64,000 bases of DNA from Deltaproteobacteria bacterium (GCA_022601195.1 JAHZIX010000006.1:16629-80628), one strand, 5' to 3'. Positions 52,030 through 64,000 are shown, numbered from the stretch's first letter. Numbers and translations are program-made. Notes: generated from the letters alone by a model not told the origin.

Positions 52030-53490
52030 GTGCTGTTCAACACTCCAGAGTTCCTCCTTTTCTTTCCCATAGTTGCCGGTCTCTTTTTTCTGCTGCGCCA
52101 GCGGTTCCGCTGGGCATGGCTGCTCGCGGCGAGCTATTTCTTCTACGCCTGCTGGCGGCCCAGCTATCTCATTCTTATCTTGGTCTCGACCTTGGTCGAT
52201 TACTTCTGTGGCCTGGGTATGGAGGCGACCTCCAGCCGCACTCGTCAACGGCTTCTGGTCGGCATCAGCATTGTTGTCAACTTGGGTTTTCTGGCAGCTT
52301 TTAAGTACCTGGACTTCTTTTTCTCTATCTACTGGGACACGGCGGAGCTATTCGGTTGGTCCCCCACTCGTAGCGTTATCGAGTTGGTGCTCCCGGTGGG
52401 GATTTCTTTCTACACCTTTCAGACGATGAGCTATTCCCTCGACGTCTTTGGAGGGCGTCGTAAGGCGGAGCGGCACCTGGGTTATTTCGCTCTCTATGTG
52501 GCCTTTTTCCCTCAATTGGTGGCAGGTCCAATCGAAAGATCCACCCGGTTGCTGCCTCAATTACGAGCAGAGCATCGCCTCGTAGCTCGTCGGGTATGGA
52601 GTGGGCTTCAGCTGATACTCGGTGGGCTGTTCAAGAAGGTGGTCATCGCTGACACTCTGGCGAAGGTCGTCGATCCGGTCTTCGCCTCTCCACAGGGTCA
52701 GATGGGGCCGGCAATCGCGCTAGCTACGATCTTTTTCTCGCTGCAAATCTACTGCGATTTCTCCGGCTATTCGGACATCGCCATTGGAGTCGCGCGGGTG
52801 ATGGGCTTCGATCTCATGAAGAATTTCGAACGACCCTACCTGGCGATTTCCATCGCTGATTTCTGGCGGCGATGGCATATTTCCCTGTCGACTTGGTTTC
52901 GGGACTATCTGTACTTTCCCCTCGGGGGGAGTCGTGTGCGTCCCTTCCGCCAGGGTCTGAATCTGGTGGTTGTCTTTGCCGTGAGCGGCTTGTGGCATGG
53001 CGCCAATTGGACCTTCATTATCTGGGGCTTGCTCCATGGGAGCTACATGGTGGTGAGCCTGCTCACAAAGTCCCTGCGGTTGAAAGTTCTGGAGGGTATG
53101 GGGATTTCCCCCGAATCCAGCCTCCTGCTCTGGTTTCGCCGAGCTACGGTTTTCTCTTTGGTTTGTCTGGCCTGGATTTTCTTTCGTGCCCGTAGCCTGG
53201 CGGATGCCGTTTACCTGATCCGGCATATTCCTTTCGGTTGGCCTCAGCTGGGGCAGGTAGCAGGTCTGCAGGCAGCTTTTCAGGCACCGTTGGCGGAACC
53301 GGTGGTTCTTGGTGCCTTGTTGTGCCTCGGGCTCCTGGCAGCCCATCTCTTGGGTGGCCAAGAAGAGATTTGGGAGAGACTCTCCCGACAACCGAGGTTC
53401 TATCGCTGGTCGGTCTACTATGGCCTTATCGCCGCCGTGGCTATTTGGGGCAATGCAGGAGGAAAGGAGTTCATCTATTTCCAGTTCTGA
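52030..53490 (+). CDS. MBOAT-family membrane O-acyltransferase (AlgI/DltB-like)
   Basis: MLFNTPEFLLFFPIV... N-terminus with a GTG start. Conserved His region ...FWRRWHISLSTWFRDYLYFPLGGSR. Confidence 0.9.
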   Translation: MLFNTPEFLLFFPIVAGLFFLLRQRFRWAWLLAASYFFYACWRPSYLILILVSTLVDYFCGLGMEATSSRTRQRLLVGISIVVNLGFLAAFKYLDFFFSIYWDTAELFGWSPTRSVIELVLPVGISFYTFQTMSYSLDVFGGRRKAERHLGYFALYVAFFPQLVAGPIERSTRLLPQLRAEHRLVARRVWSGLQLILGGLFKKVVIADTLAKVVDPVFASPQGQMGPAIALATIFFSLQIYCDFSGYSDIAIGVARVMGFDLMKNFERPYLAISIADFWRRWHISLSTWFRDYLYFPLGGSRVRPFRQGLNLVVVFAVSGLWHGANWTFIIWGLLHGSYMVVSLLTKSLRLKVLEGMGISPESSLLLWFRRATVFSLVCLAWIFFRARSLADAVYLIRHIPFGWPQLGQVAGLQAAFQAPLAEPVVLGALLCLGLLAAHLLGGQEEIWERLSRQPRFYRWSVYYGLIAAVAIWGNAGGKEFIYFQF

Positions 53491-54646
53491 GGAGTCGCAG
53501 GAGCCGCAGGAGTTTGGTCGCCTGGTTCTTCGAGGTTTCTTCTTTGTTCTACCCCTGGTTTTTATCCTAGGAGTCGATCTCGTTCTACCTTTGGGTTCCT
53601 CGACCTTTCGTCCCTGGGAGAGCCTGTCTGTTTATCGGGCGAGAGATTTCTTACCAGGCCCCTTTTATCCCAATCAAGAGCTGACAATGACGGCCGAGGG
53701 GGATCTGGGGCGCCAGGGAAGTTACGCGGTGGGGAAGAAGGTTCGATGGCAAACCGATTCCTATGGATACCGCTCTTCTCCAGCTGATGACGAGGTCTAC
53801 GAGATTGTCTTGGTGGGCGATTCCTTCGCCGTGGGTTCTTCCCTAGATCACGAAGACACTCTTGCCGGCCAACTTGGGAACCTTCTCAAAAGGGATGTCT
53901 ATGCCTTCGCTCCGGAAGCTAGGTTTTCTGTTCCCTTGCGAAGTGCCAGGTTCCAGAACCCACGAACCTCTTGTTTCGTTTTGGTGTTGAGTGAGCGTAG
54001 CCTGGAAGGTCTACCATTGGCAGAAGGAACTCTGGAATCGCTCGCCTCGTCACCGGCGACTTCCTTCAGTGGCCTGGTGATCCTGATCGATCGCTTGGCG
54101 AAGGCTTCTCTATTGCGGGCAGGCCGAAACAATATTCGCCGCTGGTTCAGTCGGATTGCCGAGATGGCGGTTGGGGTGGAGCCGTCTATTCCCATGCATC
54201 CCTCCGCCATCGTCGGTGCCAACGGAGTACTCTTTCGGGACCCGCGATTGGAGGACGATCAGGCCTATGGCAAGCCAGAGGCGGCGGATCGGCTCATTGA
54301 AGTCTTACACAGCTATCGAACAGCGGCAGAAGCATTGGGGAAGCATTTTGTCTTTATGCCCATTCCGGAGAAGGAAACCGTCTATTGGCAGCGAACGGGT
54401 GGGCTTCGAGATCCAGAGATCTATCTTTCGTTCGTCAAGAGAACCGAGATGTCTGGAATAGCCACTGTGGACCTGCTCACGCCGTATCTCGAATTTGAAG
54501 CGAGGGATGATCGAATCGACCTCTATCACGCCGACGATTCTCATTGGACCGCCCTGGGAGTCTCGGTTGCAGCGGAGCTGCTCGGTCCTGCTTGCACCAC
54601 CCAAGCCCGAAGTTCTCACGAACCTTCTGCTGCGAAACTCAATTAG
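53453..54646 (+). CDS. AlgJ/AlgX-like SGNH-fold polysaccharide O-acetyltransferase partner
   Basis: TM anchor. IVLVGDSFAV (GDS) and HADDSHWTALG (DxHW, as in AlgJ). The start MQEERS overlaps the MBOAT 3' end by ~38 nt; the ORF track begins at 53309. Confidence 0.65.
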   Translation: MQEERSSSISSSEESQEPQEFGRLVLRGFFFVLPLVFILGVDLVLPLGSSTFRPWESLSVYRARDFLPGPFYPNQELTMTAEGDLGRQGSYAVGKKVRWQTDSYGYRSSPADDEVYEIVLVGDSFAVGSSLDHEDTLAGQLGNLLKRDVYAFAPEARFSVPLRSARFQNPRTSCFVLVLSERSLEGLPLAEGTLESLASSPATSFSGLVILIDRLAKASLLRAGRNNIRRWFSRIAEMAVGVEPSIPMHPSAIVGANGVLFRDPRLEDDQAYGKPEAADRLIEVLHSYRTAAEALGKHFVFMPIPEKETVYWQRTGGLRDPEIYLSFVKRTEMSGIATVDLLTPYLEFEARDDRIDLYHADDSHWTALGVSVAAELLGPACTTQARSSHEPSAAKLN

Positions 54647-56958: not shown

Positions 56959-57606
56959 TCAATTCAACTCGAGAAGATCGATCACCTTGCGGACCCCTTC
57001 GGCGTCCTGAGCGGTCTTCAGGGCTCGCTGTTTCCTTTCCTGGTCGGGCATCGGGCCTCGAAGGCTCACAATGCCGTCGCTGCTTTCCACTTCGATGTCG
57101 AGGCCGTATCGGCCCAGCTCACCCAATAAAGCCAGCCCAACGCGATTCTCCGTGGCAGCGTCCCGAAGCTCCGCTCCGGAATGCTCCATGGTCTTCCCGA
57201 CCAGGCCACGATCATCTTCTCCGGACTTGTCTAATGCAATGCGGTTCTTGACGCGGCGGATTCCCGGGACCGATAGGGCTATCTCCCGCGCGAGCTCCTG
57301 GGAGGACCGTTCCTGCACTTGTCCCCACAGCGTCGCGGTGGTGGAGCTGACTTGGGGTTGGATACCCAACGCGTCTTTGCCGAGCTTGTCGAGAAGCGCC
57401 CCTCGCACCTGGGCCGCGAGCTCGGCGTCCGCGACCTGATGAGCTTCGGACCGTTCCGTCTCTTGGTCCATGCCCAGTCGAGCTGCGCAGGCTCCTAAGC
57501 CAAGCAACAGGCCTAAACTCAGGGAGAGGATCAGCTGGGTCCGGAACGGGAAAGATGAAGTTTTCCCGGTTACATGAGGGAAATGGGGGGAGGGATTGGT
57601 TTTCAT
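56959..57606 (-). CDS. BON-domain (OsmY-like) probable lipoprotein
   Basis: Possible lipobox LLGLGAC. Two BON-like segments (...LWGQVQERSSQELAREIALSVPGIRRVKNRIAL... and ...VSLRGPMPDQERKQRALKTAQDAEGVRKVIDLLEL). The ORF track starts at 57621. Confidence 0.6.
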   Translation of the reverse strand: MKTNPSPHFPHVTGKTSSFPFRTQLILSLSLGLLLGLGACAARLGMDQETERSEAHQVADAELAAQVRGALLDKLGKDALGIQPQVSSTTATLWGQVQERSSQELAREIALSVPGIRRVKNRIALDKSGEDDRGLVGKTMEHSGAELRDAATENRVGLALLGELGRYGLDIEVESSDGIVSLRGPMPDQERKQRALKTAQDAEGVRKVIDLLELN

Positions 57607-57821
57607 CGAGTAGATCCTCATTTAGAGATTGGGTCCCGTGCTGTCCTTGGGGCAGATAATACCAAGGCCCGTTGGGGTATTTCCTGATGATCCCGGACTG
57701 CGAATAGAATGCCCTTTAGGTGCGCGCTGAAAAGGGGGCGATGCGCTTCTTCAGCAAGCTCTCAGGACTCAGGATCTTTGGAGATGGCTAGGATATTTCG
57801 AGAAGGAAGGGAGATGCAGCC

Positions 57822-58637
57822 ATGGCGGAAAGGGACTACCGACGCTTGCCTGGAGAGCGTTACGATTTATCGGCGATCGATCCGTCCGACACGGGCGACT
57901 ACGAAGGGAAGAAAAAGGGGGAGAAGGAGCTGGAGAAACGCCGGGAGGTGCTCCTCGAGTTGCAGCGAAAGCTACACGTAGATGGTCGGAATTCCCTGTT
58001 GGTAGTACTCCAGGCGATGGATTGCGCAGGTAAAGATGGGACCATCCGTCATGTGCTCGGAGCCTTCGAGCCCCAAGGAACCCAGGTCGCCTCTTTCAAA
58101 GTTCCGAGTGAAGAGGAGAGAGCTCACGACTTCCTGTGGAGAATTCACAAAGCGGTGCCTCGGCTGGGAATGGTAGGTATCTTCAATCGCTCTCACTACG
58201 AAGAGGTACTGGTGGTTCGGGTCAAAGAATTGAAGCCCGAAGCGGTCTGGCGAACCCATTTCGAACACATCAACAACTTCGAACGGTTGCTTGCCGAAAG
58301 TGGTGTGACCATCGTCAAGATCTTCCTCCACATCAGCCCAGAAGAGCAGGCCGAGCGTTTGAGAGACCGGCAACAGCGACCGGAAAAGCAGTGGAAGTTC
58401 AGCCCAGGAGATCTCGAAGATCGCGTTCGATGGAAGTCCTATATGGCCGCCTATGAAGAAGCTTTGACCTTATGTAACACAGACCACGCTCCTTGGTATG
58501 TGGTTCCGGCGGACAAGAAATGGCATCGAAACCTGGTGGTCTCCGAGATCTTGATCGAGACGTTGAAGAATATGGATCTGCAGTACCCGGATCCTGTAGC
58601 AGATATCGACTCCTATGTAATTCCAGATATCGAATAA
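57822..58637 (+). CDS. ppk2: Polyphosphate kinase 2 family (polyphosphate:nucleotide phosphotransferase)
   Basis: LLVVLQAMDCAGKDGTIRHV is Walker A-like. ...GIFNRSHYEEVLVVRV and the lid region ...WKFSPGDLEDR follow. 271 aa single-domain PPK2. Confidence 0.9.
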   Translation: MAERDYRRLPGERYDLSAIDPSDTGDYEGKKKGEKELEKRREVLLELQRKLHVDGRNSLLVVLQAMDCAGKDGTIRHVLGAFEPQGTQVASFKVPSEEERAHDFLWRIHKAVPRLGMVGIFNRSHYEEVLVVRVKELKPEAVWRTHFEHINNFERLLAESGVTIVKIFLHISPEEQAERLRDRQQRPEKQWKFSPGDLEDRVRWKSYMAAYEEALTLCNTDHAPWYVVPADKKWHRNLVVSEILIETLKNMDLQYPDPVADIDSYVIPDIE

Positions 58638-59185
58638 GCTGCTCAGTGGCTCGGGGTGCCTTTGGCTCCTGGAGGTCTCGCTGCAGGAGTGAGAAGGAAA
58701 ACTCATACGAGAAAATTCTCTCCTTGATACGGAGTCGGGAGGCATTGAAAGAGGGAAAGTAGGTACCTCGATGCCTCGGTTTTGCCGAAGACTCTTGAGC
58801 ACGAGAAAGCGTTGGGGCTGGAAATAGCCTGGATTTCGTGTATTCTTGGCGCACATTGAATCCTGGTTGTGGCTGCGAGGTGCGATGAGCCGGCACTCAT
58901 AAACAGTCTTAGGTGAAGATCTCTTGTCAGCGGTAGTGAGGAATTTGGCGTTGGTTCGAGGCAAAAACCGGGGATCAACTCCAAGGTTGTTCGAAGGTTT
59001 TTCACCCGGAGGCGGCGTCAGAGGCCCGCTCGCAACCAGAGGACTCTTCGGAGCTCTGGAGAAGACATCCCAGGCTGTACTATCGCTATCTATAGTGTGG
59101 TTACACGACCGCAGTTTTTGAGTTTTCTTTCGTTTCTATGGGGATATAGGTTTGTGACCTGGAAGTACTGATTCTTCTGGTCTAG

Positions 59186-60478
59186 GTGAGTGCGATGAGT
59201 GAAGACAAGAGGTTTTGGAATATTCGGCCGGAATCAAGGCGTATTGCCCACCCACAAAAGGTTTATCTTAAGTTTCCAAACTCAGATGAGTTTATCGAGG
59301 AATACCTGGTCGATCTTTCGATGACCGGAATGTTCGTTCGGTGCATGAATCCACAAGAGTCAGGAACCACCTTCTCTTTCAAGATGCGGCTATCTGCAGG
59401 GGCCTCTACGGTACAAGGAACCGCGGAGGTGGTATGGGTTCGACAGGACCAGCATCGCCTCTCCCATCCGAAGGGAATGGGGGTTCGATTCGTTCACCTA
59501 GAACCGGATAGCCGTCGACAGATTCAGGAAACTGTAGAGAGGTATGCTCAGGATCCTGGAGAACCCCAGGAGATGAGTCATCTGCGCTCGGTGGTCGAAG
59601 AGACCCTGGGAGAGGTTCTTGCTCCTTCCGACGAAAGTGTTGAGGCCGAGGAAATTTTCGCTCCAGGTCCCCAAGAAGCGGCCACGATTAGCCTAGAGAT
59701 ATCACCACCCGAAACGAGTTCGGCCACCGACGAAAGGGTTGGGATGGTCGTTGAGGGCAAGGGGTCTCGCAATCGCTGGATTTCTGTAGCTGCAATCTTA
59801 CTGCTTTGTGCTGGTTTGGGTGTGTTCTTCTGGGGGCAGGGTCGAAGAGCTCCCAAACCGGTGGCGACGGTAGCCGAGGGTGGACCTGAGCCCTCAACGA
59901 TCTCACTACCTCAGGCCAGCACTTCCCCACCGCCGGGATCTGCGGCGACTGTTAGTCCTTCCTCGAACCCGGTACCCCCCGTGGAAGGAAGTGAAGTGGC
60001 TGGCGATTCCTCTTTGGCCGTTGAGAGCCCGGTGCAGGTGTCGTTAACAGAAGAGTCTGCCGTGCCAGAGAGCGCTGCAATGGAGGAGTCTCCAAAGGTT
60101 GCTGAGGAGACAGCTCCGCCCCCTGTTGTCGAGAATCCAGAGCGTTTGCTGTTGAGCATCGTAGAAGGATGGGCGGATGCTTGGTCGAGTCAGGACGTAG
60201 ACTCCTATCTGTCGTTCTACTCGGATCGATTTCGGCCTTCTCGAGGTCTTAGCCTGGTCGATTGGCGCAAACAGAGAAGAACGCGATTGAGACGACCTAG
60301 TTTCGTTTCAGTAACCGTATCGAGCCCTACAGTCTCCGCCCAATCGAACGGAAATATGGAAGTTCGTTTTGTTCAAACCTATCGATCGAATACCTTGGAC
60401 GATACGGTTTGGAAGATTCTGGAGTTTGCCCAGGAAGGAGAATCTTGGAAGATTCTTCGAGAGCGGGTTGACTCCTGA
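59186..60478 (+). CDS. PilZ domain - TM helix - Pro/Ser-rich linker - NTF2-like (SnoaL/DUF4440-like) domain protein
   Basis: The N-terminus has RPESRR (RxxxR) and DLSMTGMFV (DxSxxG), the canonical c-di-GMP-binding PilZ motifs. The TM helix is WISVAAILLLCAGLGVFFW. The C-terminus (EGWADAWSSQDVDSYLSFYSDRF...WKILRE) has an NTF2-like pattern. The start is GTG at 59186 or ATG at 59195. Confidence 0.6.
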   Translation: MSAMSEDKRFWNIRPESRRIAHPQKVYLKFPNSDEFIEEYLVDLSMTGMFVRCMNPQESGTTFSFKMRLSAGASTVQGTAEVVWVRQDQHRLSHPKGMGVRFVHLEPDSRRQIQETVERYAQDPGEPQEMSHLRSVVEETLGEVLAPSDESVEAEEIFAPGPQEAATISLEISPPETSSATDERVGMVVEGKGSRNRWISVAAILLLCAGLGVFFWGQGRRAPKPVATVAEGGPEPSTISLPQASTSPPPGSAATVSPSSNPVPPVEGSEVAGDSSLAVESPVQVSLTEESAVPESAAMEESPKVAEETAPPPVVENPERLLLSIVEGWADAWSSQDVDSYLSFYSDRFRPSRGLSLVDWRKQRRTRLRRPSFVSVTVSSPTVSAQSNGNMEVRFVQTYRSNTLDDTVWKILEFAQEGESWKILRERVDS

Positions 60479-60776
60479 TTCAGGGTCTTGCTTCGCGAGC
60501 TGGTCGCCATGAGTCGCGTCGTATTTCTACCTAGCCAATAGCTCAAATTTTCATACCTATAGTTCGATCTGTTTAGATCTTCTGGTCACGCGTTGGAACT
60601 TGTCTCCCCGACATTCTGGAGGCCTCGCGATGCCTCCTCCTGTAAACTTGCAAAGTTCCAGTTCAATAGGTCAATTTTTCGATAAGTTCGCCTGGTTGGA
60701 TACACCAAGAAAACCCTCCGGTATACTATTTGTTCGTCTATTTTATGGTTTGTGTTTAGTGGGCTGATCAACGTCG

Positions 60777-62015
60777 ATGAATGAACTGCTAGCTCGCCGA
60801 CCGGTTCCTGTGGAATCCCGCCGGATTCCTTTGGAGGCCACTGTCGTGCTGACCCAACCAGAAACGGGATTCTCTCGGGAGGTTGCCGGAGTCAACCTTT
60901 CCATGTCCGGTATGTTTGTGAGTAGCGCGGTTCTTTTAGACGTTGGCACGCTCGTTGACTTTCGTTTCGATCTCGGAGAAGACCAGCAGTCGATCCATGG
61001 CCGTGCAGAGGTGGTGTGGACTCGCGAGGATGCCAAAGGAATTCGATTTCCCAAGGGGTTGGGAATGAGGTTTTTGCGCCTCGATGCGGAGTGCCGGAGA
61101 CGGATTCGAAAAGCCGTGGAGAGTCTGATTCAGGAGAGCGACGCGCCTCCGGAGCTACGAGAGTTGCGGATGGTAGTGGAGGAGACTCTGGAAGACATCC
61201 TGAGTCTGGAATCTCCTGCCCCTGTGAACCCGCCGGCTTTGCTCAATGAGCGCACCCCGCACCTTGCCTCGGAATCTCGGGCGATGGTGGCTCGGTCAGA
61301 ATTGGGCAGCGGCAGATGGCTTCCCATCATGGGTATCGGACTTTTGGTCTTGCTCGTTGTATCCGGTTCGTATTTCCTAGCTCGACGCGGGCCACAGGTT
61401 CGTGGGTCACAGGTCGCTAGCCAGAGTGCCTCTGCCGTTTCCGATCTGCCCGCTACCAAGGCTCCTGATCTCGCGAGGCAGCTGGAAGCAGACCAGGATG
61501 AGTTGACGGAACTCAGAGGCTTCGGTCCTGACGAAGCGCTCTCGGTTTCGACGGACAAGACAGTCAAGGCGCCTCCTGGGCGCGAGCAAGAGTCGCTGGT
61601 AGAGACAGGAGAAGCTCCGGGCCTAGCTCTGGTACCAAACTCTAACGGCCCGAAGAAGATTGCTAGTCATCGAGTGAGAGAAGAGGTGCAGAGAGTCGTG
61701 ATGGGGTGGGCCAAGGTATGGTCGGACCAAGAGCCGGAGCGCTATCTTGAGTATTACTCGAGACGTTTTGTACTCCCTGACGGACTCAGTAGATCTCAAT
61801 GGGAGTCGCAGCGACGCCAGCGAATCTCGCAGCCTCAGTTCGTGAGAGTCAGCCTGGTTGATCTCGAGGTCGCGATACAGCAGGAGGATCTGGTTCAGGC
61901 TCACTTTCTCCAAAACTATCGGAGCGACAGCTTCGAAGATGCGGTTCGCAAGACCCTACATCTGGTCCGTGAAGATGATGCCTGGAAGATCTCCCAAGAG
62001 CTATCGGGTCCCTAG
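60777..62015 (+). CDS. Paralogous PilZ-like - TM - linker - NTF2-like domain protein
   Basis: The N-terminus has ESRRIP and VNLSMSGMFV (NxSxxG), with the RxxxR motif degenerate. The TM helix is WLPIMGIGLLVLLVVSGSYF. The C-terminus (MGWAKVWSDQEPERYLEYYSRRF...WKISQE) is homologous to the C-terminus of the upstream paralog. Confidence 0.55.
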   Translation: MNELLARRPVPVESRRIPLEATVVLTQPETGFSREVAGVNLSMSGMFVSSAVLLDVGTLVDFRFDLGEDQQSIHGRAEVVWTREDAKGIRFPKGLGMRFLRLDAECRRRIRKAVESLIQESDAPPELRELRMVVEETLEDILSLESPAPVNPPALLNERTPHLASESRAMVARSELGSGRWLPIMGIGLLVLLVVSGSYFLARRGPQVRGSQVASQSASAVSDLPATKAPDLARQLEADQDELTELRGFGPDEALSVSTDKTVKAPPGREQESLVETGEAPGLALVPNSNGPKKIASHRVREEVQRVVMGWAKVWSDQEPERYLEYYSRRFVLPDGLSRSQWESQRRQRISQPQFVRVSLVDLEVAIQQEDLVQAHFLQNYRSDSFEDAVRKTLHLVREDDAWKISQELSGP

Positions 62016-62793
62016 GAGCCTGTCGTGTATTGAATCACCCAGCGTGCGATGGGCGGCACGGGACCCCCTCAGCATTGCCTTCACGATGAAACCAACCAGG
62101 TTTTGCCTGCAAAAGCGTCTCGAGGGATCTCCCGTGGCGCCCCATCTGCCACCAACCGTCCATGTGAACGTGGACTCCTAGTCCGCCCTTTGCACCAGCC
62201 TTCTGCTGCGGCTCCGGACCTACTGGGATCTCCTACATCAAAACGCGATTCTGATTCCCGACCGAGAAAGACGATGCTTGCGGCACTGAGTACGCCTTCT
62301 TCCAGGGATCTTTAGCCTTCAAAGGCAACTCACGACACAGCTGGCGACAAGTCCGGATTGACCTTTGATCTCACGGGGCTTTGGTTTGGTGGTGGTTCTA
62401 TCAGCGGCCCCTGCAGTGAGGATTCCGAGTGCCGTCGGCCCTATGGAATCGCGACGAAGGCAGCCAGCGATGATCGGATCGACTGGTTCCTGGAGCTTCG
62501 AGGCCCTGAGGTCCCTGCAAGATAGGGAAGATCTCCACCCGTCCCACTGTCTCAGTTTGGTGAATTCTACGCACAAAAGAGACAGCGCTTGTTGGCTACT
62601 GCACTAGGTTGCTGTGCCAGATTGGTCGTAGAGGGTGTCAGAGAAGCGCTGGGGCTCATGGGATCCCGGGAATTCTTCCTGGTCGGACGTTGTTGAGAAC
62701 CTGACCTTCAGTCTCAGGGGAACGGGTACATGTCACCGCAAGTTCTTTCATGCTCTTCGCCTCGATCAAGATCCTTCGAACTGTCGCCCTACT

Positions 62794-62850
62794 CCAGAAA
62801 CCCAGACCCCAGAAACCCAGACCCCAGAAACCCGAATCCTAGAAAACCAG
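62794..62850. repeat. 15-bp tandem repeat (ccagaaacccagacc x2 plus degenerate copies) in ~900-bp non-coding stretch
   Basis: ccagaaacccagacc ccagaaacccagacc ccagaaacccgaatc ctagaaaaccag is read directly. Confidence 0.7.
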
Positions 62851-62914
62851 CGTGAATGCCCCATTTGCCCTCCTTCCTAGGAGAGCCCCATTAGATAGAT
62901 TGTTCGTATTGCTA

Positions 62915-64000
62915 TGAGTCAAGCCTTAGAAGCCAATGCCGATTTCCTCCGGGTGGTATCCCTTCTCGAAGGCATGAAAGCCCCAGAGAACCCCAGGCTG
63001 GATTCAGCTCCAGGGTCCCCTACGTACTCCGGAGGAGGTGCAAAGCGGGCTTCGATGGAGTACCTCGGCGAGCGAGCGCACGTGATCTCGAGGTATCTGA
63101 AGGCTCACGATCTTTCGGGAAGGCGAGTTTGGCTGTTGTACCCCCCCGGTCCAGATTTCGTTGCCAGTTACCTCGCCTGCCTTAGGGCATCGGTGATTCC
63201 TCAACCGATTTGGCTTCCCAATAGTGATTGGGCAGGTTTCGTGCAACATCTCGAATCCTCAGAGGCCGAGACTGCCCTGATCCTGACCTTGGCGACGGAG
63301 GTCTCCCAGTGGGAAAAGGAGCAAGCCCAGGAGCTTCGGCTGCGGTGGGTAGCGACCGACACTCTCCCAGGATTGGCTTGGGATTCCAGCGAGTTGCGCG
63401 ACCCTCCGCTGTCCTTTTCCAGCCATGTACCTCTTTGGCGTCAGAGTGCGCCTCGTCCTCCCTTCGAGGCGGCGGAGGTGCGGAGGTGGCTCTTTTTTGT
63501 CGATGATTACGGGGTGGTCTCGGATCTGGTCGAGCGCATGAGGCGATTGCCCGGAAGCCTGGAGCCAGAGGTTTCCCTGGTCCGGCCTGGCGAGGGCTTC
63601 GAGCGCATCGACGAAGGTCTCTACACGATCGACCCAGGTTGTCCCCAGCACTATCTGGAGCTGATCGCCGATCTCGTCGATCAAGATCGGGCGCCGGACT
63701 ACATACTCCATGGCTGGAGCATTTCCGTACCCCCTCAGGGACGAGCCCCTGAGCCCGCTTCCGCGTCTAGGGAGGACAGTGATTTCGAATCTCGCCTTGC
63801 CTTCGAGCGCAACCGTCTCGCCGCTCACCGTGTAGTGAGCTTCGATAGCTTAGAGTTTCTCGCGCGAGCTCTAGGGCGTCAGTTGCCCACCGGGCCGCGG
63901 ACTCTGACGATCCTGTCCAACGATCTGCACCGAGTTATGGCAGAAGACAACGTGGAGCCAGACAAAGCCTTCCTTCTCGGTGCCGTGAGGGAGCTGCCGC
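62915..64000 (+). CDS. 5' part of a large gene; adenylate-forming enzyme (FAAL/AMP-ligase)-like N-terminus; continues beyond window end
   Basis: Manual translation from ATG 62915 is stop-free to the window end (~360 codons in high-GC DNA). The N-terminal ASMEYLGERAHVISRYLKAHDLSGRRVWLLYPPGPDFVASYLACLRASVIPQP resembles the FAAL/AMP-binding A1-A2 region. Downstream adenylation motifs were not recognised, and there is a frame-reading risk. Confidence 0.3.

What the first reader, a model, noticed from the sequence alone, without database searches (positions are those of the whole stretch)
59186..62015. Tandem paralogs: cytoplasmic PilZ domain - single TM - Pro/Ser linker - periplasmic NTF2-like domain
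Seen in sequence: both proteins have the same architecture. The first has canonical c-di-GMP-binding PilZ motifs (RPESRR; DLSMTG). The second retains NxSxxG (NLSMSG) but has a degenerate RxxxR. Both have C-terminal domains with an NTF2/SnoaL-like pattern (W..AWSSQD...Y..YS.RF....W...R.....; ...WKI..E) placed beyond a TM helix.

A PilZ receptor that projects an NTF2-like module into the periplasm, next to a large EPS locus and a PPK2 gene, suggests c-di-GMP-dependent control of periplasmic polymer processing or export. I do not recognise this as a described PilZ partner domain.
Basis: partly seen in the sequence, partly recalled or inferred. Interest (0 to 1): 0.65.

Follow-up and report, generated by a model that had tools for sequence, protein, structure and literature searches.

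The report
Membrane PilZ proteins with wall-binding domain
Two neighbouring genes encode membrane proteins with a c-di-GMP-receptor-type (PilZ) domain inside the cell and, outside the membrane, a domain that in other bacteria binds the cell wall; this fusion has not been studied and more likely links signalling to the cell wall than to slime export.

Summary
Two tandem paralogs lie at 59195(59186)-60478 and 60777-62015 (31% identity, E 1e-52). Each has an N-terminal PilZ barrel, one TM helix, a disordered linker and a C-terminal NTF2-like domain.

- **C-domain:** it is not an orphan. It belongs to Pfam PF24125 (Cds6_C), the NTF2 module of the periplasmic peptidoglycan LD-carboxypeptidases Csd6, Pgp2 and Bd1075. 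In those enzymes it binds peptidoglycan or targets the enzyme. The tested pocket residues are conserved in both ORFs.
- **Topology:** charge bias across 118 relatives supports N-in/C-out.
- **PilZ motifs:** [D/N]hSxxG and one Arg (R19) are nearly invariant. The first Arg of RxxxR in the canonical register is missing in both ORFs and in 109 of 125 relatives. ORF1's "RPESR" is off-register and lineage-specific, so c-di-GMP binding is plausible but unproven.
- **Family:** at least 125 clusters (50% identity) share the architecture. The full-length relatives identified to taxon are Thermoanaerobaculia (Acidobacteriota) MAGs.
- **Synteny:** the conserved neighbours are PPK2 (all six lineages) and usually a BON protein, not the EPS genes.

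Best reading: peptidoglycan-tethered transmembrane PilZ adaptors or receptors. This is a new variant of known kinds, of moderate interest.

The parts
59195..60478 (+). ORF1 (427 aa from ATG 59195; 430 aa if read from GTG 59186): PilZ - TM - linker - Cds6_C/NTF2 protein, NCBI MCH9647267.1
   Evidence: the start is supported by the conserved SD-like GGTGAG and alignment of orthologous upstream regions
59231..59551 (+). ORF1 cytoplasmic PilZ beta-barrel plus C-terminal helix (residues 16-122 in 430-aa numbering). It includes ESRR (E16-R19) and DLSMTG (43-48, nt 59312-59329).
   Evidence: Pfam PF07238 E 1.9e-12 and TIGR02266 73.2 bits (cut-off 68.7); pLDDT above 90; Foldseek matches to c-di-GMP-bound MapZ, YcgR, Alg44 and PA0012
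59567..59608 (+). Conserved cytoplasmic helix after PilZ (residues 128-141, LRSVVEETLGEVL). Its function is unknown.
   Evidence: Conserved in both paralogs and in P0002-P0011/P0016; predicted as a helix at low confidence
59771..59845 (+). ORF1 single transmembrane helix (residues 196-220; hydrophobic core 199-217)
   Evidence: Kyte-Doolittle 2.27 over 19 residues; AF2 helix; positive-inside bias across the family, with N-side K/R exceeding C-side in 100 of 118, p 2e-17
59846..60136 (+). ORF1 periplasmic disordered Pro/Ser/Glu/Ala/Val-rich tether (residues 221-317)
   Evidence: Composition; pLDDT below 50; family median linker 58 aa, rich in A/P/S/E
60137..60472 (+). ORF1 periplasmic Csd6/Pgp2/Bd1075-type NTF2-like domain (residues 318-429). 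Pocket residues: W329, W333, Y341, Y345, F349, R364, Y399, K410, E426.
   Evidence: PF24125 E 9.8e-16; 7o21 E 9e-10 by sequence, rmsd 1.8 A over 107 columns; pocket mapping
60777..62015 (+). ORF2 (412 aa), a paralog with the same architecture, NCBI MCH9647268.1
60816..61139 (+). ORF2 PilZ domain (residues 14-121), with ESRR (13-16) and NLSMSG (40-45, nt 60894-60911). No Arg at -4 or -5 relative to R16.
   Evidence: PF07238 E 7.4e-13; TIGR02266 57.3 bits, below the cut-off; pLDDT above 90
61317..61385 (+). ORF2 transmembrane helix (residues 181-203)
   Evidence: Kyte-Doolittle 2.26; AF2 helix with pLDDT 83-92
61647..62009 (+). ORF2 periplasmic NTF2-like (Cds6_C) domain (residues 291-411). Pocket residues: W311, W315, Y323, Y327, F331, R346, Y381, K392, E408.
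   Evidence: PF24125 E 5.9e-16; Foldseek top hit Bd1075, rmsd 1.8 A over 112 columns; hmmalign mapping
57822..58637 (+). PPK2 polyphosphate kinase gene, the conserved upstream neighbour of the pair on the same strand
   Evidence: PF03976 E 9e-76; adjacent to ORF1-type genes in L001/L009, L002, L044, L046 and L048
56959..57621 (-). Protein with two BON domains and a probable lipoprotein signal (…LGLGAC…), divergent from PPK2. It is part of the conserved cluster in most lineages.
   Evidence: PF04972 E 1.7e-23; present in L001/L009, L044 and L046; the signal was read from the sequence
59140..59190 (+). Conserved upstream elements of ORF1: a TATA-like box (GGGGATATAGG, about 59140-59150) and an SD-like GGTGAG (59185-59190). 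Promoter function is an inference only.
   Evidence: Invariant columns in the alignment of six orthologous PPK2-to-ORF1 intergenic regions. The sigma-70 consensus scan found no promoter.

Best explanation
ORF1 and ORF2 are bitopic inner-membrane proteins oriented N-in/C-out. Each has a cytoplasmic PilZ-type barrel of the TIGR02266 kind, one TM helix, and a flexible periplasmic tether of about 90-100 residues. The tether ends in an NTF2-like domain of the Csd6/Pgp2/Bd1075 family.

**Shown**
- The domain identities, the single TM helix and the disordered tether.
- Conservation of the peptidoglycan-pocket residues.
- Conservation of the gene pair next to PPK2.

**Inferred**
- The periplasmic domain binds peptidoglycan (muropeptide stems). 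This immobilises or positions the protein on the sacculus, and the tether is what lets the domain reach the wall.
- The cytoplasmic PilZ domain then couples that wall attachment to a cytoplasmic partner or to c-di-GMP. It could act as a c-di-GMP receptor whose ligand state changes oligomerisation or periplasmic engagement (inside-out, as in Alg44 or LapD). It could also act as a wall-anchored docking site for a partner.
- The ORF1-type/ORF2-type pair is kept together in five lineages (window, L001/L009, L002, L044/L045, L048), so the two probably work as a heteromer.

They are not LD-carboxypeptidases, because they have no catalytic domain. They are unlikely to be EPS co-polymerases.
For: **Domains and fold**
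-.

**Pocket conservation**
- Pgp2 Y233/F242/K257/K307/E324 are needed for helical shape, and K307 is needed for sacculus pull-down (PMC8038945). They align with ORF1 Y341/F349/R364/K410/E426 and ORF2 Y323/F331/R346/K392/E408.
- Of these, Y341/R364/K410/E426 are invariant columns of the family alignment; F349 is a majority residue only (Tyr in about a quarter of A1).
- Bd1075 Y274, the pocket base needed for targeting (PMC8938487), aligns with invariant Y399/Y381.
- Csd6 pocket W223/W227/Y235/Y239/F243/K258/K313 (PMC4599014) are likewise matched.

**Periplasmic placement**
- One TM helix and no signal peptide.
- Positive-inside bias in 100 of 118 relatives, p 2e-17.
- Other PF24125 proteins carry N-terminal signal or TM segments. 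They are fused to YkuD L,D-transpeptidase, BamE or TPR, all envelope contexts.

**PilZ ligand site partly kept**
- [D/N]hSxxG: N/D in 123 of 128, S in 123 of 128, G in 127 of 128. R19 is present in 125 of 128.

**Family and pairing**
- At least 125 clusters share the architecture.
- The PPK2 + ORF1-type + ORF2-type order is kept while the outer flanks change.
- Some single-copy relatives lie next to a class A PBP.
Against: - No binding data exist for any member.
- The first Arg of RxxxR in the canonical register is absent in ORF1, in ORF2 and in 109 of 125 relatives. PilZ domains lacking that half-motif are generally predicted or found not to bind c-di-GMP (PMC10313047; bioRxiv 10.1101/814665).
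- The closest solved PilZ by sequence is the non-binding Xanthomonas PilZ, although the match covers only the barrel core.
- The NTF2 pocket of Csd6 has also been proposed, in silico only, to bind pseudaminic acid. The ligand could therefore be another acidic glycan.
- In Pgp2, strong peptidoglycan binding needed the catalytic domain as well.
- PBP adjacency is convergent and was seen only in two syntenic loci.
- No c-di-GMP turnover gene is in the window.
Confidence: 0.5

Rival explanations
1. [quoted passage not shown]
For: - A real polysaccharide locus lies upstream: GT4 glycosyltransferases, Wzt ABC, a Wzc-like kinase, Wzy_C, Bac_transf and an MBOAT + AlgX-like pair. The same arrangement is found in L001.
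- Alg44 sets a precedent for PilZ-TM-periplasmic domain proteins.
- The Csd6 NTF2 pocket was docked with an acidic sugar.
Against: - The pair is separated from the EPS genes by MetF/MetH, an FG-GAP protein, BON and PPK2.
- L002, L044 and L046 keep PPK2 plus the PilZ gene(s) without polysaccharide genes in their sequenced flanks; L048 holds only PPK2 and the pair.
- The other subgroups sit in unrelated contexts.
- There is no synthase with which to form a co-polymerase pair, and no MFP/HlyD-like periplasmic domain.
- The pocket residues match those shown experimentally to bind peptidoglycan.
Confidence: 0.12
2. A c-di-GMP-independent scaffold. The PilZ domain has lost nucleotide binding, as in Xanthomonas/Pseudomonas PilZ, PlpA or CsdK1. 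It serves only as a protein-interaction module on a wall-anchored membrane protein.
For: - The canonical first Arg is missing in 109 of 125 members. A literal RxxxR occurs anywhere nearby in only 34 of 125.
- ORF1's R14 is not shared by its orthologs.
- The best PDB sequence match for the barrel is the non-binding Xanthomonas PilZ, E 9e-6.
- The literature expects loss of binding without the first half-motif.
Against: - R19, the h position and S/G of [D/N]hSxxG are almost invariant across at least 125 diverged clusters. That is hard to explain unless a ligand site is under selection.
- Position 18 is R or K in 74 of 128, and upstream basic dyads occur in 41 of 125, so they could substitute.
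- The fold matches ligand-bound PilZ structures.
Confidence: 0.28
3. An outside-in sensor. The periplasmic NTF2 domain senses muropeptides or wall damage and transmits the signal inward, like bitopic anti-sigma factors with extracytoplasmic NTF2 sensors (RsgI9). This would change what the PilZ domain binds.
For: - The RsgI9 S1C-NTF2 sensor appears among the fold matches.
- The BON envelope protein is a conserved neighbour.
- Single-pass topology is typical of such sensors.
Against: - A long disordered tether (35-128 aa) transmits conformational signals poorly.
- There is no anti-sigma, kinase or other output domain.
- No adjacent sigma factor or regulator is conserved.
Confidence: 0.1

Closest known systems
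NTF2-like C-terminal domain of the LD-carboxypeptidases Csd6 (H. pylori, 4XZZ), Pgp2 (C. jejuni, 6XJ6) and Bd1075 (B. bacteriovorus, 7O21); Pfam PF24125 Cds6_C
   Same: - Same Pfam family, above the cut-off.
- rmsd 1.7-2.0 A over 107-116 columns for ORF1.
- 21-28% identity for ORF1.
- Same aromatic/basic/acidic pocket residues.
- Same periplasmic location.
   Different: - There is no LD-carboxypeptidase (YkuD-like) catalytic domain.
- The domain hangs on a disordered tether from a TM helix instead of packing against a catalytic domain.
- It lacks the Bd1075-specific C-terminal extension with W303.
Alg44 (P. aeruginosa alginate co-polymerase)
   Same: An N-terminal cytoplasmic PilZ domain, a single TM helix and a periplasmic C-terminal domain. 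The PilZ fold matches 4RT0/4RT1.
   Different: - In Alg44 the periplasmic part is an MFP/HlyD-like domain, not NTF2.
- Alg44 has a canonical RxxxR.
- Alg44 is encoded inside the synthase operon. Here the conserved neighbours are PPK2 and BON.
TIGR02266 (gmx) PilZ paralog family of Myxococcus, Geobacter and related bacteria
   Same: ORF1 scores above the NCBIfam cut-off. The barrel core, 'GMFV', 'VVWVR' and 'GMGVRF' signatures are shared.
   Different: The family is defined only as a domain, and no function is attached to it. ORF2 scores below the cut-off. The TM + NTF2 extension is not part of that definition.
Wall-anchored bitopic hub or assembly proteins (FimV/HubP with periplasmic LysM; ExeA/GspA with a periplasmic PG-binding domain). 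This comparison rests on my own knowledge.
   Same: The logic is the same: one TM helix joins a periplasmic peptidoglycan-binding module to a cytoplasmic interaction or nucleotide-binding module.
   Different: The domains are unrelated (LysM or PF01471 versus NTF2; TPR or AAA+ versus PilZ), and FimV has the opposite orientation.

Membership tests
PilZ domain (PF07238), canonical c-di-GMP receptor | Profile match above Pfam's gathering score | tested here: met
   ORF1 47.9 bits and ORF2 49.2 bits against a cut-off of 22.5
PilZ domain (PF07238), canonical c-di-GMP receptor | Six-stranded beta-barrel followed by a charged C-terminal helix | tested here: met
   AF2 pLDDT above 90, strands plus helix 107-122 (ORF1) and 104-121 (ORF2). 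Foldseek TM(target) 0.67-0.74 to MapZ, Alg44 and PA0012.
PilZ domain (PF07238), canonical c-di-GMP receptor | [D/N]hSxxG motif | tested here: met
   DLSMTG in ORF1 and NLSMSG in ORF2. Across the family, N/D is present in 123 of 128, S in 123 of 128 and G in 127 of 128.
PilZ domain (PF07238), canonical c-di-GMP receptor | RxxxR motif in the register RxxxR-h-x-h | tested here: not met
   - The conserved Arg followed by h-x-h is R19 (ORF1) and R16 (ORF2).
- The -4 position is Pro in ORF1 and Val in ORF2. It is Arg in only 16 of 125 relatives.
- ORF1 has a literal R14xxxR18 one residue out of register, and its orthologs do not share it.
PilZ domain (PF07238), canonical c-di-GMP receptor | Binds c-di-GMP | not testable with these tools
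   This needs DRaCALA, ITC or MST on the N-domains.
TIGR02266 (NCBIfam paralog domain) | Score above the curated cut-off of 68.7 bits | tested here: inconclusive
   ORF1 scores 73.2 bits (met). ORF2 scores 57.3 bits (below the cut-off).
Cds6_C / Csd6-Pgp2-Bd1075 NTF2-like domain (PF24125) | Profile match above the gathering score and the cone-shaped alpha+beta NTF2 fold | tested here: met
   58.5 and 59.2 bits against a cut-off of 27. Top Foldseek hits are 7o21, 4xzz and 6xj6/6xj7. The profile hits 7o21 at E 2e-11, 6xj6 at 3e-6 and 4xzz at 1e-5.
Cds6_C / Csd6-Pgp2-Bd1075 NTF2-like domain (PF24125) | Conserved pocket residues shown to matter in Pgp2 and Bd1075 | tested here: met
   - Y341/F349/R364/K410/E426 and Y399 in ORF1.
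- Y323/F331/R346/K392/E408 and Y381 in ORF2.
- All but the Phe (F349/F331; Tyr in about a quarter of A1) are invariant in the family alignments.
Cds6_C / Csd6-Pgp2-Bd1075 NTF2-like domain (PF24125) | Binds peptidoglycan or muropeptides | not testable with these tools
   Inferred from homology to Pgp2 (PMC8038945). It needs sacculus pull-down or NMR.
Csd6/Pgp2-type LD-carboxypeptidase (whole enzyme) | YkuD-like catalytic domain with a Cys/His triad | tested here: not met
   Neither ORF has a PF03734 hit. The only other folded part is PilZ.
Alg44-type PilZ co-polymerase | Periplasmic MFP/HlyD-like domain, with the gene inside a synthase operon | tested here: not met
   The periplasmic domain is NTF2. 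The neighbours are PPK2 and BON, with no adjacent GT2 synthase.

The most novel reading that the evidence does not exclude
These proteins are a direct physical coupling between c-di-GMP and the sacculus. A non-canonical PilZ site (ES[R/K]R + [D/N]hSxxG) still binds c-di-GMP. Binding switches the heteromeric pair so that its tethered NTF2 domains engage or release specific peptidoglycan features. This would spatially control wall-modifying enzymes, envelope stiffness or cell shape. The conserved PPK2 would supply GTP from polyphosphate for the local signal.
Probability: 0.2. Interest if true: 0.7.

Novelty: new variant of a known kind. Interest (0 to 1): 0.45.

Why it matters
Known PilZ effectors act on flagellar motors, pili, polysaccharide synthases, chemotaxis proteins or transcription. 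A PilZ protein whose only other folded part is a periplasmic peptidoglycan-binding module would add the cell wall itself to the list of c-di-GMP outputs or anchoring points.

It would also show that the Csd6/Pgp2/Bd1075 NTF2 domain is a portable wall-binding module, used outside LD-carboxypeptidases with PilZ, TPR and BamE.

The family's half-kept RxxxR motif, alongside an intact second motif, is a natural test case for what a PilZ domain minimally needs to bind c-di-GMP.

The practical limit is that the taxon-named full-length members found here are all uncultured Thermoanaerobaculia MAGs.

Tried and rejected
- **Riboswitch or other known RNA:** Rfam found nothing credible in the long intergenic regions 58400-64000. 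There are no tRNAs. The sigma-70 and terminator scans were at or below chance.
- **Shared repeats:** no regulatory repeats are shared between the two upstream regions. Only short matches at chance level were found.
- **A conserved divergent partner:** the 278/279-aa upstream proteins in L004 and L005 are not homologous.
- **GspB-like + AAA_22 neighbours:** they recur next to single-copy relatives. The whole neighbourhood is syntenic and convergent, so I did not count this as independent functional evidence.
- **c-di-GMP turnover genes:** no ORF in the window contains a GGDEF, EAL or HD-GYP motif.
- **AFDB fold search:** the library was unavailable.
- **Family size:** the word-indexed homolog searches gave about 35-40 clusters, which underestimated the family. 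The exhaustive profile search corrected this.
- **Literature:** searches for PilZ + NTF2-like, TIGR02266, and PilZ with a periplasmic or peptidoglycan domain found no description of this architecture.
Full report
**1. What is there**

- The ORF table shows two same-strand ORFs at 59186-60478 (430 aa, GTG start) and 60777-62015 (412 aa).
- NCBI holds them as MCH9647267.1 (427 aa, starting at ATG 59195, 'TIGR02266 family protein') and MCH9647268.1 ('PilZ domain-containing protein'). Both come from a 423,876-bp MAG contig labelled Deltaproteobacteria.
- ATG 59195 is the better start. It is preceded by GGTGAG, and an SD-like purine block at the same distance is conserved in five orthologous loci.
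- The two proteins align over their whole length at 31% identity, E 1e-52.

**2. Domains and topology**

- Pfam assigns PilZ (PF07238) to the N-terminus and Cds6_C (PF24125, 'Cds6 C-terminal NTF2-like domain') to the C-terminus of both proteins. All hits are above the gathering scores.
- NCBIfam places ORF1 in TIGR02266. ORF2 falls just below the cut-off.
- Each protein has exactly one strong hydrophobic segment and no N-terminal signal peptide.
- AlphaFold models of both give confident PilZ barrels, a TM helix and an NTF2 cone, joined by disordered linkers.
- In 118 relatives with the same architecture, the 15 residues on the N-side of the TM helix carry more Lys/Arg than the C-side in 100 cases (Wilcoxon p 2e-17). 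This is the positive-inside signature of N-in/C-out.

**3. The C-terminal domain is a known wall-associated module**

- By sequence, the best solved relative is Bd1075 of Bdellovibrio (7O21, E 9e-10; E 2e-11 with the family profile). Pgp2 (6XJ6) and Csd6 (4XZZ) follow.
- By fold, the same three lead the list for both models. For ORF1 the rmsd is 1.7-2.0 A over 107-116 columns.
- Pgp2's NTF2 pocket binds peptidoglycan fragments by NMR. K307A weakens sacculus pull-down. Y233, F242, K257, K307 and E324 are all needed for helical shape (PMC8038945).
- Profile alignment maps these residues onto ORF1 Y341/F349/R364/K410/E426/Y399 and ORF2 Y323/F331/R346/K392/E408/Y381.
- All of them except the Phe (F349/F331, Tyr in about a quarter of A1) are invariant columns of the family alignments. 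So are the Trp and Tyr that line the Csd6 pocket.
- Elsewhere PF24125 occurs behind signal or TM segments, singly or in two to five copies. It is fused to YkuD L,D-transpeptidase, BamE or TPR. All of these are envelope settings.
- There is no catalytic domain here. The proteins are therefore not LD-carboxypeptidases; they borrow only the binding module.

**4. The PilZ domain**

- The fold matches ligand-bound PilZ structures: MapZ, YcgR, Alg44 and PA0012.
- In 128 family members the second motif is nearly invariant, and so is one Arg (R19 in ORF1 numbering, 125 of 128).
- The PilZ review gives the pattern RxxxR-h-x-h. R19-I-A-H/L fits it, and the alignment to the AcsA PilZ domain (4I86) places the canonical second Arg on R19.
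- The canonical first Arg position (-4) is Pro in ORF1 and Val in ORF2. It is Arg in only 16 of 125 members. A literal RxxxR anywhere in the preceding 14 residues occurs in 34 of 125.
- ORF1's R14 gives a literal R14xxxR18 but is replaced by S, P or A in all its close orthologs.
- The family motif is therefore ES(R/K)R-h-x-h plus [D/N]hSxxG. Whether this binds c-di-GMP cannot be decided here.
- The literature treats loss of the first half-motif as loss of binding. Against that, the strict conservation of R19, S45 and G48 argues that a ligand site is maintained.

**5. Family and distribution**

- The exhaustive profile search found 20,321 hits at E<=1e-3 and 2,062 at E<=1e-30.
- Of the 178 sequences in hand, 118 are PilZ-TM-NTF2 and 7 are PilZ-PilZ-TM-NTF2.
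- In the GTDB species set, the full-length matches are all Acidobacteriota MAGs, mostly Thermoanaerobaculia and including Ca. Multivoradales.
- The window's MetH is 81% identical to that of a Thermoanaerobaculia MAG. The 'Deltaproteobacteria' label is therefore probably wrong.

**6. Genomic context**

- The window carries a genuine polysaccharide locus: PMT_2, two GT4 enzymes, Wzt, a Wzc-like protein, Wzy_C, Bac_transf and an MBOAT + AlgX-like pair.
- MetF/MetH, an FG-GAP protein, a BON protein (minus strand) and PPK2 lie between that locus and the pair.
- Across six lineages (window, L001/L009, L002, L044/L045, L046/L047, L048/L049), PPK2 always lies immediately upstream of the ORF1-type gene on the same strand.
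- An ORF2-type gene follows in five of those lineages, and BON is present in four.
- The outer flanks differ: MetH and IleRS, or DoxX with an aminotransferase, or fatty-acid genes.
- The PPK2-to-ORF1 spacer is always at least 190 bp. It holds a conserved TATA-like box about 50 nt upstream of the ATG, which suggests the pair has its own promoter.
- Single-copy relatives sit in other contexts:
  - convergent with a class A PBP;
  - convergent with a GspB-like + AAA_22 pair, in a wholly syntenic block;
  - beside cNMP-binding/TPR and hybrid-kinase genes, with an FHA-EAL gene nearby.
- None of these contexts supports a dedicated EPS role.

**7. Interpretation**

- The best-supported model is a peptidoglycan-tethered, single-pass membrane protein pair. 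Its cytoplasmic PilZ domains act as c-di-GMP receptors or as docking modules.
- The Ala/Pro/Ser/Glu-rich tether (35-128 aa, median 58, in the family; about 97 aa in ORF1) is the kind of spacer that would let the NTF2 domain reach the sacculus from the inner membrane. This is an inference.
- Direction of signalling, ligand identity and heteromer formation are also inferred.
- The rivals are an Alg44-like EPS role, a c-di-GMP-blind scaffold and an outside-in wall sensor. They are scored in the report sections.

**8. Novelty**

- Both domains and the bitopic PilZ layout (Alg44) are known, and the databases already tag both domains.
- No paper in the searchable library describes the fusion.
- I rate it a new variant of a known kind, of moderate interest.

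Noticed in passing
window 56959-62015; L001, L002, L044, L046, L048: BON lipoprotein (minus strand), PPK2 and the PilZ-NTF2 gene(s) form a small gene cluster conserved across six lineages while the outer flanks change. PPK2 is the only invariant neighbour. A functional link between polyphosphate/GTP and these proteins is possible but untested.
   Followed up: partly
window 59140-59150 and 59185-59190; alignment A4: A TATA-like box about 50 nt upstream of the ORF1-type start codon and an SD-like GGTGAG/GGAGAG are conserved in six orthologous intergenic regions that are otherwise unalignable. The spacer is 558 bp in the window against 190-260 bp elsewhere.
   Followed up: partly
window 62016-63258, repeat at 62791-62850: About 1.2 kb downstream of ORF2 has no ORF with any hint of a gene (none over 92 aa, and none was tested for homology). 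It holds a 15-nt tandem repeat in about 4 units (ACCCCAGAAACCCAG). Rfam found nothing there.
   Followed up: no
window 58001-62000: G+C drops to 0.53-0.54 over the pair and its spacers, against about 0.58-0.62 in most of the window.
   Followed up: no
whole window; L009: The NCBI record calls the MAG 'Deltaproteobacteria bacterium'. The closest syntenic relative (MetH 81%, PPK2 64% identity) is a Thermoanaerobaculia MAG, and every full-length family match in GTDB is from Acidobacteriota, mostly Thermoanaerobaculia. The taxonomic label is probably wrong.
   Followed up: partly
window 21416-47255 and 52030-54646: A large surface-polysaccharide locus is split by metF/metH. It contains PMT_2, two GT4 glycosyltransferases, Wzt-type ABC ATPase, a Wzc-like Wzz/GNVR/P-loop protein, Wzy_C, a beta-helix protein, Bac_transf, and an MBOAT + AlgX-like O-acetylation pair.
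   Followed up: partly
ORF1 residues 128-141 (59567-59608); ORF2 residues 125-142: A short helix, P-x-E-(L/M)-x-x-LRSVVEETL-x-x-(V/I)L, follows the PilZ C-terminal helix. It is conserved in both paralogs and in the PBP-adjacent subgroup, but not in the other subgroups. Its role is unknown.
   Followed up: no
L005/L006, L010-L012, L014, L017, L018: Single-copy family members in Thermoanaerobaculia lie tail-to-tail with a GspB/T2SSB-like gene and an AAA_22 (GspA/ExeA-like) gene. The block is conserved and also holds FHA-GAF-SpoIIE, FKBP, MscS and a methyltransferase.
   Followed up: partly
P0045, P0047, P0049, P0065, P0089 (relatives, not in the window): Proteins with 3-5 tandem Cds6_C/NTF2 domains sit behind a signal or TM segment. 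Some are fused to TPR or BamE, which suggests the domain serves as a multivalent envelope-binding repeat.
   Followed up: partly
L046 4181-4930 (P0008), and P0013: Some ORF1-type orthologs are truncated to PilZ-TM without the NTF2 domain. In L046 the next gene is an unannotated 682-aa protein instead of the ORF2-type paralog.
   Followed up: no
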